Assembly (NCBI RefSeq): GCF_009914755.1
Contig: NC_060931.1
DNA from: the human T2T-CHM13v2.0 reference genome, Homo sapiens
Strand: one strand, 5' to 3'
DNA length: 64,000 bases
Under the pieces are notes generated by a model. That model was not told the origin of the DNA. It saw nothing but the letters and a program-made list of their open reading frames with translations, and ran no database searches. Both the position numbers and the translations under genes were made by a program. Positions 32,952 through 37,967 of the stretch are shown one piece after another (within the stretch, counting starts at the first letter, position 1; every line of letters starts with the position of its first letter).

Positions 32952-33929
32952 TGTGGGGAAAAGAAAGAGAGATCAGACTGTTACAGTGTCTATGTAGAAA
33001 GAAGTAGACATGAGAGACTCCATTTTGTTCTGTACTAAGAAAAATTCTTTTGCCTTGAGATGCTGTTAATCTGTAACCCTACCCCCAACCCTGTGCTCGT
33101 AGAAACAAGTGCTGTGTGCTGTGTCGACTCAAGGTTTAATGGATTTAGGGCTATGTAGGATGTGCTTTGTTAAACAAATGCTTGAAGGCAGAATGCTTGT
33201 TAAAAGTCATCACCACTCCTTAATCTCAAGTACCAAGAGACACAAAACACTGCAGAAGGCCGCAGGGACCTCTCCCTAGGAAAGCCAGGTATTGTCCAAG
33301 GTTTCTCCCCATGTGATAGTCTGAAATATGGCCTCGTGGGAAGGGAAAGACCTGACCATCCCCCAGCCCGCCACCTGTAAAGGGTCTGTGCTGAGGAGGA
33401 TTAGTAAAAGAAGAAGGCCTCTTTGCAGTTGAGATAAGAGGAAGGCATCTGTCTCCTGCTCGTCCCTGGGCAATGGAATGTCTCAGTGTAAAACCTGATT
33501 GTATATTCCATCTACTGAGATAGGAGAAAACCGCCTTAGGGCTGGAGGTGAGACATGCTGGCGGCAATACTGCTCTTTAAGGCATTGAGGTGTTTACATA
33601 TGTGCACATCAAAAGCACAGCACCTTTTTCTTTACCTTGTTTATGATGCAGAGACATTTGTTCACATGTTTTGCTGCTGACCCTCTCTCCACTATTACCC
33701 TGTTGTCCTGCCACATCCCCCTCTCCGAGATGGTAGAGGTAATGATCAATAAATACTGAGGGAACTCGGAGACCAGTGCTGGCACGGGTCCTCCGTATGC
33801 TGAGCGCTGGTCCCCTGGGCCCACTTTTCTTTCTCTGTACTTTGTCTCTGTGTCTCTTTGTTTTCTCAAGTCTCTCGTTCCACCTGACGAGAAACAGCCA
33901 CAGGTGTGGAGGGGCAGGCCACCCCTTCA
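32952..33929 (+). mobile_element. HERV-K(HML-2) complete LTR (LTR5B/5A type)
   Basis: TGTGGGGAAAAGAAAGAGAGATCAG ... GGCCACCCCTTCA, 978 bp, AATAAA 33748-33753; 3' end is the older non-LTR5_Hs form. Confidence 0.95.
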
Positions 33930-33931
33930 TC

Positions 33932-33949
33932 TGGCGCCCAACCTGGGGC
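33932..33949 (+). other. tRNA-Lys(CUU) primer binding site
   Basis: TGGCGCCCAACCTGGGGC, 17/18 match to TGGCGCCCAACGTGGGGC. Confidence 0.9.
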
Positions 33950-34930
33950 TAAGGGATCTATTCTATTTATTTGCGCTGACTGAATTTTTTCTTCCACTAA
34001 TTTAATTTCTTTTGTTGCCTCTGGGGTTAATATTCTTTTAAGTCTGGTTCTCCTCTTAAGATAGAGAGCAAATTTGACATGGCATAAGTAGGAATGCCTA
34101 AAGTTGGCCGAATCCAATTAATATCGCCTAGCAATTTTTGAAAATCATTTAATGTTTTTAATGTCTTTTTTTATTTCTATTTTTTGTGGCTTAATTTTTC
34201 TATTTTCTATCTGCATCCCTACATAATGAAAAGGAGTAGAGGTTTGAATCTTATCAGATACTATTGCCAGTCCTGCGTTGGCAACCTCTGCTTACAGAAA
34301 TGTGTAAGTCAATTAATTTGTCTTGTTTCTGTAGCACATAAAATATCATCAGCATAATGAATGATATAACAGTCTGAAAACTTGTCTCTAACTGGTTGAA
34401 GAGCTCGACCTATGAAAGTCTGACAAATAGTTGGACTATTAAGCATTCCCTGAGGTAACACTTTCCACTGAAACCTGGTGGCTGGTTATTATTTATGGCT
34501 GGTATAGTAAAGGCAAATTTTTCACAATCCTGCTCCGCCAGAGGAATGGTAAAAACGTAGTCCTTCAGATCAATTATAATTAAAGGCCCGGCGTTTGGGA
34601 TCATGGCCGGAGAGGGCAACCCGGTTTGGATAGGTCGCATGGGTTGAATTACGGCATTTATGGCCCTTAAGTCCGTTAACATACGCCATCTGCTGGATCT
34701 TTTCTGAATTACAAACACAGGAGAATTCCAAGGCGAGAATGAAGGCTCAATATGTCCCTTTTCTAATTGTTCATTTGCTAATAAATGTAAAGCCTCCAGT
34801 TTTTATTTTGGTAGCGGCCACTGATTTACCAATACGGGTTTTTCTGTTTTCCAACTTAATGGAATGGTAAGTTTAGGAGGCTCTGCAGTGGCCACCCCTA
34901 AAAAGGATACCCTATTCCTTTTCTTTCTTG
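33944..34930 (-). pseudogene. pol: HML-2 pol 5' part (RT), truncated at RIDPLAP
   Basis: [31 protein letters not shown] for YIDD; frameshifts. Confidence 0.9.
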
Positions 34931-35850
34931 ATTTCTTTCAGTCTCAATTGGGACTTTAATGCCATTTTCATTTTTTCCTAGTCCTTTTCCTGGTATATAT
35001 CCCATCTTAGTCATGATTTTTTGACTCGTGGGGCTGTATAATGGAGCGGGCATAGTGATTTCCGCACCCCATTGTTGTAATAAATCTCGACCCCGCATAT
35101 TAACAGGAATTGAAGTAATCATTGGCTGAACAGTACTTTCTTGATTATCTGGCCCTAAACAGTGTAAAATCATAGTACTTTGATGCACTTCTGAGGCTGT
35201 TCCTATGCCGAGAAGTCCTGTAACAGCCTTTTGTTTAGGCCAATTTTTTGGCCACTGATTTAAAGCAATGATAGAGACATCTGCTCTAGTGTCTACTAAC
35301 CCTTCAAACTGTTTTCCTTGAATAATGGCCTTACACACAGGTCTGCTGTCTGAGACCTGACTTGCCCAATATGCGGCCTTTCCTGTCGGATCAGTGCTTC
35401 CAAACCCTCCTGTTTTTATCTGTTTCCAACCATAATATAAGGCAGGAGTAATAATTGAGCAATCCTGTCTCCTGGACTGGCACTCCAAGGAATTGAAGAG
35501 CTAATAACCAATTGAATTTCGCCTTTATAGTCTGAATCAACCATACCACTATGAATTTGAACTCCCTTTAGATTTAGACTTGAGCTTCCTAAGATTAGTC
35601 CTACAGTCCCTTCAGGCAGTGGGCCATATATCCCTGTGGGGTTTTTTTGTGGGGGTTCCCCTGGAAGCAGAGAGACTGCTTGTATAGTACATAAATCTAC
35701 TGCTGCACTGCCACTTGTGGTGGGGGACAATTGTTGTATTGTGGTAACTGGCTCATTCCCTGAGGCACTTGGGACAGTGGGGGTTGTTGTCCCTGAAATC
35801 CCTGAGGAGCAAAGGGCTGAATTGGGAATGCCCCAGTTTTTTGTGGGGCC
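34898..35850 (-). pseudogene. pro: HML-2 pro (dUTPase-protease-G-patch), disrupted
   Basis: GSAAVDL and VDSDYKGEI motifs; active site DTG changed to DTR; KMGYIPGKGLGK; frameshifted. Confidence 0.9.
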
Positions 35851-37786
35851 TGAGGCGGGCCCCTCTTCTCATTTCCCAACAATGGTTGCCCATTTCTATC
35901 AAATTTAGAATGACATTGACCAGCCCAGTGTTTTCCTTTTCGACATCTTGGACATAAGTCAGGTGGCTCTTTATCTGTTGTTGTAGTAGCTTGAATAGTT
36001 ATATTTTGTTTATTTGAGACTGGGCAATTCTTTTTTAGATGACCAACTTGACCACAATTATAACATTTCCCCCCAAATGTTCTAACTTGTCTTCCTAAAG
36101 CAACTCCCATTATTGCTTGAGCCATAAACATAGCTTTATGCATAGCTCCTCCTCCATCACAGGCTTTTACATACTCAGATTACATTTGATTCTGTGGGAA
36201 CCTTACCTTTTAATGGCTTAATGGCTGATTGACACTCAGGATTGGCGTTTTCATATGCCATCAACTCCACTATGACCTTACAAGCATTCTCATCGGTAAT
36301 TGACTTTTGAGCAACATCTTGGAGCCTTGCCACAAAATCAGGGTAGGGCTCTTTAGAGCCTTGTCTTATTGTATTGAATGAGGGGCAGGCGGTTCCTGGG
36401 TCTTGGATTTTTTCCGAGGCCCTAAGGCAGATAGCTCTAACTTGCTCAATGGCCTCATTTTGCATTAACACTTGTTGACTAGTAGTGCTTCAATTTTGAC
36501 CTGTTCCTAATAGTTGATCTGCATCTATGTTAACTGGAGGATTGGCAGCCCTGTTTCTTCAGACCGACCTGTTGTTGTGCCCCATCAATCCACCAAGTCT
36601 TAAATTGTTAAAATTGAGAGGGTGAGAGAGACAATTTGGCCAGAACCTCCCAATCATAAGGAATGAGTCTATGTCCATGAGCAATGGAATCTAATAATGT
36701 CCTCATATAAGGGGAGTTGGGTCCATACTGTTTTACTCCCTCTTTCATATCTTTTAGCATTTTTATAGAAAAAGACTCATATCTGGCCTCAGCTAGGGGA
36801 GGCTCTCCCTCTTGGGCCCCTTCTCCAGGTGGTATTGGTTCTAATATTACTGGGAATTGCCATGCCTCAATATCTCTTTGTTTTCTTGCCTCATCAATAA
36901 TTTTATGTAATACACTACCCTGCTCACTAGGTGGTGCTGTAGGATTAAGTCTCATAGTGGGTGGCTGAGGGTATGGCGCCCTGTCCTGTGGGGCTGGGAA
37001 CATTCCTGGCTGTCCATACTGATTTTCCGGGGGTGGCCGACACTTAAGTTCGGCTGGCAGCCAGTATTGATAGGCTACTGGCAGTTGGGTCTTATTTTCT
37101 ACCGGCTGATATTGTGGATACTGTATTTGGATTGGCATTGCCGTGACAGAGACTCTATCTTTCTCTATTTGATATTCTCTTGGGGTTTGTACTTGCCTAA
37201 CCTGCATTTGAGGTTGTAATGTTACAGGCATCTGAACTGCTGGAAGAGGAGTTGGCCCTCGTGGTTTAGACTCTGATGGCCCTGCTAATTCTGGACCTTT
37301 TTCTTCTAATTTTAACGTTTCAGGATATATCACCTCCTGTAATTGATTATAGTCAACATTTTGCATTGACTGAGCCATTACCGGCTCTGCTACATACTCA
37401 CAATGTAAACTTTCCGTTCCTTTCCGGGATTTTATCTCTGCCTCTTCTTTACAATCTATTAAACAGCTTTCAGGGGCATCAGAAACTGAAACACTATCTT
37501 CTTCTGTTTGAAACGGTTCTAAAGCTACTTTAATAATGACCCAGTCATTCCATACTGTAAGTGGGATGATTTTACCCTCCCTACTTGCTTGTTTTAATTC
37601 TTTGCCAATTTTTTCCCAGTCTTTTAGATATAAAGTTCCCTGTTCTAGAAACCATGGGCAAAATTTTCTATTGTTTGAAATAGTGTGATTAGATTTTTTT
37701 GTAGAAACTCTAACTCCCCCCCTTTTTTTTTAAAGAATTTTAATAGAATTGAGATGAGAGGCATATTTACTTTTAGTTTGCCCCAT
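35697..37786 (-). pseudogene. gag: HML-2 gag, disrupted
   Basis: ATGGGGCAAACTAAAAGT start; MHR-like IRQGSKEPYPDFVARL; zinc knuckles CYNCGQVGHLKKNC and CPRCRKGKHWAGQC; split into several ORFs. Confidence 0.92.
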
Positions 37787-37967
37787 TGTTACCCTGGCTT
37801 TTTCCAAGCGCGCAAGCTTACCGCAAGGCTGACTGTAGACGTACTTGGGAATCTCTCATTGACTTGTCCTCAATGACCACGCTCGAGCGTACCTTCACCC
37901 TAGAGAAAAGCACCCACGTTGGGCACCAGGTGAAGGGGTGGCCTGCCCCTCCACACCTGTGGATGGG

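What the first reader, a model, noticed from the sequence alone, without database searches (positions are those of the whole stretch)
32952..37965. HERV-K insertion looks like a fossil of aberrant reverse transcription (strong-stop DNA jumping into pol)
Seen: a complete LTR(+) is followed by PBS TGGCGCCCAACCTGGGGC, which stops at exactly nt 18. The sequence then continues without filler as the reverse complement of pol (…IDPLAP), pro, gag, leader, a second PBS (TGGTGCCCAACGTGGGTGC) and ~35 nt of U5. The last 6 nt TGGGGC belong to both the tRNA-Lys complement and antisense pol (GCCCCA). Known: plus-strand strong-stop DNA is U3-R-U5 plus 18 nt copied from the tRNA primer. Inference: strong-stop DNA missed the second strand transfer, annealed by microhomology to plus-sense pol and was extended back toward the genome 5' end. 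This gave an LTR-inverted-genome molecule that entered the germline. Caveat: TGGGGC could derive from pol alone, and TGGCG/TGGTG could be CpG decay.
Basis: partly seen in the sequence, partly recalled or inferred. Interest (0 to 1): 0.85.

Follow-up and report, generated by a model that had tools for sequence, protein, structure and literature searches.

The report
Fossil of misprimed HERV-K reverse transcription
This 5-kb HERV-K element looks like a preserved mistake of retroviral DNA synthesis, in which the LTR-plus-primer-copy intermediate primed at the wrong place and copied gag-pro-pol backwards, and an independent second copy with the same joint elsewhere on chromosome 7 suggests the mistake is recurrent.

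Summary
One complete LTR (+) and an 18-nt tRNA-Lys-type PBS run without filler into antisense RT, protease, dUTPase, gag, leader, a second PBS and about 35 nt of U5.

- **Long target duplication.** The insert is flanked by a 266-bp direct duplication of unique host DNA. The right copy runs on into undisturbed host sequence. The U3 end is exact and the other end is a ragged non-LTR end with 2 nt of filler. This matches experimentally known one-ended integrations.
- **A second locus.** 7q22.2 (ERVK-14) has the identical LTR-PBS18|antisense-pol joint. Its flanks, right end, LTR type and tree position differ, so the event happened at least twice.
- **Two PBS types in each locus.** The LTR-side PBS is the tRNA type and the internal PBS is the viral-genome type.

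The inverted segments end 2 nt and about 37 nt upstream of the PBS. That is where RNase H-trimmed genomic RNA would end.

A 2013 table footnote already notes the opposite-strand LTR at both loci. I found no mechanism in print.

Not tested: ape orthologues and the 7q22.2 empty site.

Verdict: real, interpretation supported (about 0.75), a new variant of a known kind.

The parts
32687..32951 (.). Left copy (A) of the duplicated host target DNA
   Evidence: 32687-32952 aligns to 37968-38240 with 259 matches, 7 mismatches and 2 indels; this segment occurs exactly twice in the genome, both times here.
32952..33928 (+). Complete HML-2 LTR (U3-R-U5), exact TG start and CA end
   Evidence: sequence; colinear with the 7q22.2 LTR from its first base; full-length matches to other HML-2 LTRs at 93% identity or less.
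33929..33930 (+). TC spacer between U5 and PBS
   Evidence: the same TC precedes the PBS in normal proviruses.
33931..33948 (+). 18-nt PBS of tRNA type (C at nt 4; one later G>C change at nt 12). [quoted passage not shown]
   Evidence: The tRNA identity of the 18-mer is shown by LTR-tRNA read-through loci recognised as tRNA-Lys(ctt).
33943..33948 (.). Overlap shared by the PBS end and antisense pol (TGGGGC here; GTGGGGC, 7 nt, in 7q22.2 and in normal pol)
33949..34802 (-). Antisense pol: reverse transcriptase from its N-terminus to about residue 357 (thumb/connection region). Frame broken.
   Evidence: 7sr6 residues 325-355; RVT_1.
34898..35868 (-). Antisense pro region: dUTPase, retroviral protease, G-patch
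35697..37786 (-). Antisense gag (p10, p24, zinc knuckles) in several broken frames. Includes about 97 nt (37101-37197) absent from 7q22.2.
   Evidence: The ATG is read.
37787..37909 (-). Antisense 5' leader
   Evidence: leader anchor TTTCTCTAGGGTGAAGG next to the PBS.
37910..37928 (-). Second PBS, viral-genome type (T at nt 4, GGGTGC tail, 19 nt)
   Evidence: row L038; the same variant is in L037 and L039.
37929..37965 (-). Spacer plus the last 32-35 nt of U5. End of the inverted segment, not an LTR terminus.
   Evidence: inverted repeat I1.
37966..37967 (.). 2 nt (GG) matching neither virus nor host: filler at the host-mediated joint
37968..38240 (.). Right copy (A') of the duplicated host target. 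It runs straight on into host DNA with no LTR (unoccupied-site configuration).

Best explanation
The element is a germline fossil of one aberrant reverse-transcription product, not a rearranged provirus.

Proposed sequence of events:
1. Plus-strand strong-stop DNA (U3-R-U5 plus 18 nt copied from the tRNA-Lys primer) failed to make the normal second strand transfer.
2. Its 3' end (...GTGGGGC) paired with a 7-nt complement (GCCCCAC) in plus-sense pol, inside the RT coding region.
3. It was extended back through pro, gag, leader and PBS to the 5' end of that template. The template was most likely genomic RNA whose R-U5 had already been removed by RNase H.
4. Second-strand synthesis gave a linear DNA with one normal U3 end and one non-LTR end.
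5. Integrase inserted the U3 end. Host repair joined the other end 266 bp upstream. This left 2 nt of filler and a 266-bp target duplication.

The same mispriming happened independently in a younger HML-2 lineage and gave 7q22.2 (ERVK-14).

Shown: the anatomy, the duplication, the recurrence, the independence of the two loci and the PBS asymmetry. Inferred: the order of events, RT rather than a host polymerase as the extending enzyme, RNA as the template, and integrase acting at the U3 end.
For: **Anatomy.**

**Target duplication.** A 266-bp duplication of DNA that is otherwise unique in the genome flanks the whole insert. The right copy is contiguous with undisturbed host DNA. Divergence between the two host copies is 7 of 266 sites. 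Divergence between the two U5 copies is 1 of 35 sites. The two pairs are therefore of similar age.

**Recurrence.** A genome-wide pattern scan for the joint, allowing up to 3 mismatches, found 2 of 2 hits at 7q34 and 7q22.2. The reversed-pattern control found 0.

**Independence of the two loci:**
- They share no flanks and are about 90% identical.
- 7q22.2 pol is 98% identical to young proviruses but 92% to 7q34.
- The 7q22.2 LTR is 98-99% identical to many solo LTRs. The 7q34 LTR is at most 93% identical to any other.
- In a tree of 8 pol/pro segments, 7q34 pairs with an old provirus (support 0.999) and 7q22.2 sits among young ones, with normal proviruses between them.

**PBS asymmetry.** The LTR-side PBS has C at nt 4 and the internal PBS has T in both loci. 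Among 28 normal LTR-PBS-leader junctions, 24 have T and 4 have C. All 4 with C also have the 18-nt tRNA-like tail.

**Right ends.** 7q22.2 ends at TC plus PBS. 7q34 ends 32-35 nt into U5.

**Precedent.** In ASLV and HIV-1 experiments, when one viral DNA end is bad, integrase inserts the good end and host enzymes insert the other. The host duplications that result are 'hundreds or thousands of bp' (PMC5041404, passages read).

**Other fossils.** Further loci derived from strong-stop DNA exist in this genome. One of them has a 58-nt target duplication.
Against: - No orthologue from another primate could be examined. A later rearrangement of a once-normal provirus at 7q34 is therefore not directly excluded.
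- The last 6-7 nt of the '18-nt PBS' could come from pol alone. The break could lie anywhere from PBS nt 11/12 to nt 18.
- The pol site is not the unique best match. An 8-nt match in pro and other 7-nt matches exist. Why the same site was used twice is unexplained, apart from being one of roughly 2-4 candidates.
- The PBS asymmetry rests on one informative position per locus. tRNA-type PBS also occurs in normal proviruses (4 of 28, and more among older copies).
- The 7q34 right end keeps about 35 nt of U5. That is more than simple RNase H trimming predicts.
- For 7q22.2 no target duplication was found and its target-site change is unknown.
- Nothing here shows which polymerase made the joint.
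Confidence: 0.75

Rival explanations
1. The joint was made on unintegrated viral DNA by host repair, not by reverse transcriptase. A free LTR-PBS fragment (strong-stop DNA with its 18-nt 3' overhang) was joined or extended by a host polymerase, through microhomology-mediated end joining, onto other viral DNA. The product then integrated by one end.
For: - A 7-nt microhomology at the joint, 2 nt of filler and a long duplication at the host joint are typical of host end-joining.
- Host enzymes demonstrably handle bad viral ends (PMC5041404).
- This still explains the PBS nt-18 end, the recurrence and the PBS asymmetry.
Against: - It needs a break or free plus-sense single strand at the pol site in two independent events.
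- It does not by itself explain why both inverted segments end at or near the PBS 5' edge, which a template end explains.
Confidence: 0.12
2. Two normal proviruses were each rearranged after integration. Replication template switching or a fold-back between the PBS and an inverted microhomology in pol was followed by loss of pol-env-3' LTR. At 7q34 there was an additional local duplication of host DNA.
For: - Complex duplication-inversion structures arise in genomes by template switching.
- Proviruses with a tRNA-type PBS (4 of 28) carry the 7-nt inverted match needed.
- No orthologue was checked.
Against: - It must produce the same joint twice in unrelated loci and remove the 3' half both times.
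- It must end both inverted segments next to the PBS.
- At 7q34 it must restore an unoccupied A'-B site with no solo LTR.
- It must make the two PBS copies differ at nt 4 in the young 7q22.2 locus.
- My own arithmetic, not a tool result: a uniform break falling in the 7-nt window of a roughly 9.5-kb provirus is about 7 in 9500 per locus.
Confidence: 0.07
3. The joint arose once. 7q22.2 and 7q34 are then related by DNA-level copying or by gene conversion or recombination that carried the joint from one locus or lineage to the other.
For: Both loci lie on 7q and are colinear from the first LTR base to the internal PBS.
Against: - No shared flanks, different right ends and a 97-nt gag difference.
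- About 90-94% identity to each other, while 7q22.2 is 98% identical to young proviruses.
- U5 diagnostic bases differ within 20 nt of the joint.
- 7q22.2 is listed as human-specific and 7q34 as shared with orangutan (PMC3228705, Table 1).
- The structure lacks a 3' R and a PPT in the right orientation, so it cannot replicate as a retrovirus. This follows from established knowledge of reverse transcription.
Confidence: 0.03

Closest known systems
Aberrant one-ended retroviral integrations (ASLV vectors with one mutated end; HIV-1 under suboptimal integrase inhibitor or with integrase resistance mutants; PMC5041404)
   Same: One viral end and its host junction are normal. The other end is truncated and joined by host enzymes. 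The host DNA is duplicated over hundreds of bp instead of 4-6 bp (passages read). At 7q34 there is an exact U3 end, a ragged end with 2 nt of filler and a 266-bp duplication.
   Different: Here the bad end is not a mutated or drug-blocked LTR end. It is the end of a mis-synthesised molecule that never had a second LTR. The event is natural, germline and at least about 14 million years old. That age is inferred from its listing as shared with orangutan.
Normal plus-strand strong-stop DNA and second strand transfer in retroviral reverse transcription
   Same: The LTR side is exactly what strong-stop DNA is: U3-R-U5, the spacer and 18 nt copied from the tRNA. The stop after 18 nt at the modified base of the primer is established knowledge, recalled and not tested here.
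   Different: The 3' end paired with 7 nt in plus-sense pol instead of the 18-nt PBS complement on minus-strand DNA. Synthesis therefore ran backwards over gag-pro-pol.
Defective HIV-1 proviruses with internal inversions
   Same: Proviruses with inverted internal segments are seen in patients. In 88 sequenced proviruses, after removing duplicate clonal sequences, 1.3% had inversions plus deletions and 1.3% had inversions (PMC9278108, passages read).
   Different: In the passages I read, that paper gives no breakpoint at PBS nt 18, no recurrence and no long target duplication. It invokes strong-stop DNA only for asymmetric LTRs.
Retroviral autointegration products
   Same: They give inverted or deleted viral DNA made before chromosomal integration.
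   Different: Autointegration joins the terminal CA of an LTR to internal DNA. Here the joint lies 20 nt beyond the U5 CA, after TC plus the 18-nt PBS. The defining feature is not met.
LTR-tRNA read-through insertions of HML-2 found in this genome
   Same: These are also strong-stop-derived molecules that reached the germline. One (L070) also has an exact-looking U3 side and a 58-nt target duplication.
   Different: In those, synthesis continued into the tRNA instead of switching to pol. They carry no internal viral genes.

Membership tests
HERV-K(HML-2) element | LTR5-type LTR with TG...CA ends, a tRNA-Lys PBS, and the gag-dUTPase-protease-G-patch-RT order typical of this betaretrovirus-like group | tested here: met
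   The locus is listed as 7q34 / K(OLDAC004979) / ERVK-15 in PMC3228705 Table 1.
Canonical integrated provirus | Two LTRs in direct orientation flanking a colinear genome | tested here: not met
   There is one LTR. The internal part is inverted and ends in a 32-35-nt U5 stub.
Canonical integrated provirus | Short (5-6 bp) target-site duplication | tested here: not met
   The duplication is 266 bp. A normal 6-bp duplication is seen for comparison at L069.
[quoted passage not shown] | A complete U3-R-U5 followed by the PBS up to nt 18 and no further, then a switch of template | tested here: met
   There is a 6-7-nt ambiguity because of the shared bases.
[quoted passage not shown] | The LTR-side PBS carries the tRNA sequence while the template-derived PBS carries the viral-genome variant | tested here: met
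   C versus T at nt 4 in both loci. Only one informative position per locus. Background: 4 of 28 normal junctions are tRNA type.
[quoted passage not shown] | The same joint recurs in independent insertions, guided by complementarity to the fixed 3' end | tested here: met
   (2 of 2 hits).
[quoted passage not shown] | Reverse transcriptase, not a host polymerase, made the joint on an RNA template | not testable with these tools
   Inferred only from the right ends lying at or near the PBS 5' edge.
One-ended (aberrant) integration | One normal LTR end at the host junction, and the other viral end truncated or non-LTR | tested here: met
   both loci start at TGTGGGG. The right ends are a U5 stub plus GG filler (7q34) and TC plus PBS (7q22.2).
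One-ended (aberrant) integration | A long duplication or a deletion of host DNA at the aberrant end | tested here: met
   Met for 7q34: 266 bp. For 7q22.2 it is inconclusive: no duplication was found and the empty site was not available.
Autointegration product | The internal joint lies at the terminal CA of an LTR | tested here: not met
   The joint is 20 nt past the U5 CA.
Simple post-integration inversion | Two breakpoints, no duplicated viral sequence, and the rest of the provirus retained | tested here: not met
   PBS and U5 are present twice in inverted orientation. The 3' half of pol, env and the 3' LTR are absent.

The most novel reading that the evidence does not exclude
HML-2 had a built-in hot spot for failed second strand transfer. 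The 3' end of its strong-stop DNA repeatedly primed on genomic RNA at one site in RT. This created a recurrent class of 'LTR plus antisense gag-pro-pol' insertions that entered the germline by one-ended integration.

Together with the LTR-tRNA read-through loci, the human genome would then hold a readable catalogue of reverse-transcription and integration errors of an ancient virus. The long target duplications would serve as clocks.

A corollary concerns expression studies. The LTRs of ERVK-14 and ERVK-15 would drive RNA antisense to gag-pro-pol. 'HML-2 expression' signals dominated by these loci would then need re-reading.
Probability: 0.45. Interest if true: 0.75.

Novelty: new variant of a known kind. 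Interest (0 to 1): 0.66.

Why it matters
- **Natural evidence for laboratory phenomena.** Failed second strand transfer with mispriming, and one-ended integration with long host duplications, are otherwise known from vectors, mutants or drug-treated infections. Here they appear in fixed germline elements, and the same event occurred twice.
- **Annotation.** It corrects how two much-cited HML-2 loci are read. They are catalogued as minus-strand proviruses lacking a 5' LTR, with a '3' LTR on the opposite strand' (PMC3228705; PMC3590776). More likely the LTR is the strong-stop LTR.
[quoted passage not shown] ERVK-15 was among the loci up-regulated on HIV-1 infection (PMC4375885). The orientation of the promoter relative to gag matters for interpreting such data.
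- **Dating.** The long target duplication offers a way to date single-LTR elements.
- **A search image.** 'LTR-PBS18 joined to antisense internal sequence' can be looked for in other ERV families and genomes.

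Tried and rejected
- **Unique-site idea rejected.** I expected the pol site to be the only good match to the strong-stop 3' end. It is not. An 8-nt match in pro and further 7-nt matches exist in 5q33.3, 7q34 and 7q22.2.
- **7q22.2 target site.** No direct repeat flanks it. Its left flank is unique and its right flank is an old interspersed repeat. 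Without an empty site, the target change stays unknown.
- **Ape and monkey orthologues.** No primate genome other than the window's own is held, so this was not done.
- **Full-length reference proviruses.** A 3.2-kb piece was taken instead. The 5q33.3 pieces were scanned separately. About 400 nt of its gag were not scanned.
- **ARAGORN.** It found no tRNA in L050 or L072, but did in L066, L069, L070 and L088. That is 4 of the 6 loci scanned.
- **Literature.** Nine searches ran. They found the orientation footnote and the integration precedent, but no mechanistic account of these loci and nothing on LTR-tRNA fossils.
- **Papers not seen.** Reus et al. 2001, which first named K(OLDAC004979), is not held. 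No supplementary files were opened. Either could describe the structure.
- **Considered and rejected:** autointegration (the joint is not at an LTR CA), nested insertion of a second provirus (the joint is after the PBS and there is no second set of ends), L1-mediated retrocopy (no poly-A, exact U3 start), and assembly error (three assemblies agree in length).

Full report
**What is there.** The window is chr7 of T2T-CHM13. The element is the HML-2 locus known as 7q34, K(OLDAC004979) or ERVK-15. PMC3228705 Table 1 lists it as minus strand, shared with orangutan and without an age estimate.

- LTR: 32952 (TGTGGGG...) to 33928 (...CTTCA).
- Spacer TC.
- PBS: TGGCGCCCAACCTGGGGC at 33931-33948.
- From 33949, without filler: the reverse complement of RT, G-patch and protease, dUTPase and gag (Pfam).
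- Then the leader, a second PBS (37910-37928) and 32-35 nt of U5 (to 37965).

The last pol frame ends ...RIDPLAP. It aligns to residues 325-355 of the solved HERV-K RT, 7sr6. A 53-nt inverted repeat, 92% complementary, links the two U5-PBS copies.

Normal proviruses read GGAGTGGGGCTAAGGG on the antisense strand at this pol position. PBS and pol therefore share 7 nt (GTGGGGC) ancestrally. In this copy a G>C change at PBS nt 12 leaves 6.

**First new fact: a 266-bp target duplication.**
- Host DNA 32687-32952 is repeated at 37968-38240, with 259 matches, 7 mismatches and 2 small indels.
- The segment occurs nowhere else in the genome (2 of 2 matches are these).
- The left copy abuts the first base of the LTR.
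- The right copy follows the U5 stub after 2 nt (GG) that match neither partner. It then continues into downstream host DNA with no LTR, as an unoccupied site would.

The whole LTR-plus-inverted-genome unit is thus bracketed like a single insertion. It has one exact U3 end and one ragged non-LTR end.

The host copies differ at 7 of 266 sites and the two U5 copies at 1 of 35. Both pairs are therefore similarly old. This fits an insertion that predates the orangutan split. That last step is inference.

**Second new fact: the joint recurs.**
- A search of the window's genome with the joint region found one other place matching from the first PBS base.
- A pattern scan for the joint, with up to 3 mismatches, found exactly two loci: this one and chr7:106,063,245. 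The reversed control found 0.
- The second locus is 7q22.2 / ERVK-14. It reads LTR, TC, TGGCGCCCAACGTGGGGC, then TAAGGGATC.... This is the same joint, with an unmutated 18-mer.
- It is colinear with 7q34 from the first LTR base to the internal PBS at about 90% identity. It has different flanks and lacks about 97 nt of gag.
- It ends at the reverse complement of TC plus TGGTGCCCAACGTGGAGGC, with no U5 at all.

**The two loci are independent.**
- 7q22.2 pol is 98% identical to many young proviruses and 92% to 7q34.
- The 7q22.2 LTR is 98-99% identical to many solo LTRs.
- The 7q34 LTR and pol are at most 93-94% identical to anything else.
- In a tree of 8 pol/pro segments, 7q34 pairs with an old provirus (support 0.999). 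7q22.2 sits with young ones, and normal colinear proviruses lie between them.
- PMC3228705 lists 7q22.2 as human-specific.
- A structure with one LTR and no PPT or 3' R in the right orientation cannot replicate as a retrovirus. This follows from established knowledge.

The joint therefore formed at least twice.

**PBS types.** I examined 28 normal LTR-PBS-leader junctions, taken from the 30 best loci after dropping the two aberrant loci themselves.
- 24 have T at nt 4 and a 19-nt tail such as GGAGGC.
- 4 have C at nt 4 together with the 18-nt tail GGGGC.

The second form is the tRNA sequence itself. Several HML-2 LTRs in this genome run from that 18-mer straight into a full antisense tRNA-Lys(ctt). 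ARAGORN recognises it in 4 of 6 such loci.

In both aberrant loci the LTR-side PBS has C and the internal PBS has T plus the 19-nt tail. This is expected if the LTR-side copy was templated by the primer tRNA and the internal copy by viral RNA. Only nt 4 is informative, because the tail overlaps pol. More tRNA-type PBSs occur among older normal copies. This evidence is supportive, not decisive.

**Mechanism proposed.** Plus-strand strong-stop DNA ends after 18 nt of the primer. This is established knowledge, recalled rather than tested here.

1. Instead of pairing with the PBS complement on minus-strand DNA, its 3' end paired with GCCCCAC in plus-sense pol.
2. It was extended to the template's 5' end. 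Both inverted segments stop next to the PBS: 2 nt upstream at 7q22.2 and 32-35 nt plus spacer at 7q34. Genomic RNA ends there once RNase H has removed R-U5 after minus-strand strong-stop synthesis. I therefore infer an RNA template.
3. Copying back to the U3 end gives a duplex with one integrase-competent end.
4. Integration then followed the route shown experimentally for ASLV and HIV-1 DNAs with one bad end. Integrase inserts the good end and host enzymes insert the other. The viral end is often truncated, and host duplications are 'hundreds or thousands of bp long', or deletions occur instead (PMC5041404, passages read).

**Against, and rivals.**
- The pol site is not the only candidate. 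An 8-nt match in pro and other 7-nt matches exist. Its reuse is one choice among roughly 2-4, with no further explanation.
- The joint could have been made by host end-joining on unintegrated DNA rather than by RT (rival, 0.12).
- Independent post-integration rearrangements (0.07) would have to do several things twice. They would have to repeat the same joint, remove the 3' half and end next to the PBS. At 7q34 they would also have to recreate an unoccupied site without a solo LTR. They would have to make the PBS copies differ in a young locus.
- A single origin with later copying (0.03) conflicts with the flanks, the right ends, the gag difference and the tree.
- No primate orthologue could be examined. 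That is the main gap.

**What is in print.**
[quoted passage not shown] It treats ERVK-14 as lacking a 5' LTR. The inverted LTR is therefore known as an annotation.
- PMC3228705 and PMC4379556 (passages) list the loci without comment on structure.
- PMC4379556 attributes 7q34 reads to read-through from SSBP1.
- Nine full-text searches ran. They found no account of the mechanism, the 266-bp duplication, the shared joint or the LTR-tRNA loci.
- Reus et al. 2001 is not held and no supplements were opened. Priority cannot be excluded.

**Verdict.** I rate it a new variant of known kinds of event (aberrant strand transfer and one-ended integration), of good interest to retrovirologists and to those who annotate or quantify HML-2 loci.

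Noticed in passing
L066 (G000:C5:26303095 +), L050/L068 (C15:93549317 -), L069 (C18:46280257 +), L070 (C19:55009329 +), L072/L073 (C1:39372489 and 39372948 -): HML-2-type LTRs whose U5, spacer and PBS run on into a near-full antisense copy of tRNA-Lys(ctt). These are fossils of strong-stop DNA that read through the primer. ARAGORN calls the tRNA in L066, L069 and L070, and not in L050 or L072. My literature searches found nothing on them.
   Followed up: partly
L070:458-515 and L070:1574-1631: The LTR-PBS-tRNA insertion at C19:55009329 is flanked by a 58-nt direct repeat of host DNA (95% identical). The tRNA copy is cut short at a TAGCT overlap. This is a second long target duplication next to a non-LTR viral end.
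   Followed up: partly
L069:515-1636: Structure: LTR, PBS, about 70 nt of tRNA copy, then a second copy of the last ~52 nt of U5 ending in CA. It is flanked by a normal 6-bp duplication CTTCCC. This is a mini-element with two integrase-competent ends.
   Followed up: partly
L088 (G000:C19:38120857 -): Sense pro/pol sequence is joined through a GGGG overlap to the last ~15 nt of U5, then PBS and a full tRNA-Lys copy. It looks like tRNA-primed minus-strand DNA that jumped early into pol, with the primer later copied.
   Followed up: no
L022 (G000:C19:30164870) and L023 (C8:140583345): Two proviruses with different flanks both begin with only the last 23 nt of U5 (TGTAGGGGCAACCCACCCCTACA). This start resembles the normal LTR start TGTGGGG. 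The same truncation point in two loci is unexplained.
   Followed up: no
Loci L013-L041: PBS dimorphism among normal HML-2 proviruses: 24 of 28 have T at nt 4, mostly with a 19-nt tail, and 4 of 28 have the exact 18-nt tRNA form. The two differences are fully linked. This is as expected if the plus-strand (tRNA-templated) copy is sometimes the one inherited.
   Followed up: partly
window 37101-37197: About 97 nt of gag are present in 7q34 but absent from 7q22.2. This fits the longer gag amplicon reported for ERVK-15 than for other loci (coordinates in PMC4375885). From recall, it also fits the gag difference used to define the K(OLD) group.
   Followed up: no
window 35027, 35843, 36988; L009:5173; G000:C5:157182092: Other 7-8-nt matches to the strong-stop 3' end lie in pro and gag. 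In the parts scanned, the pol site used twice is the one nearest the 3' end of the genome. Whether that position matters is open.
   Followed up: no
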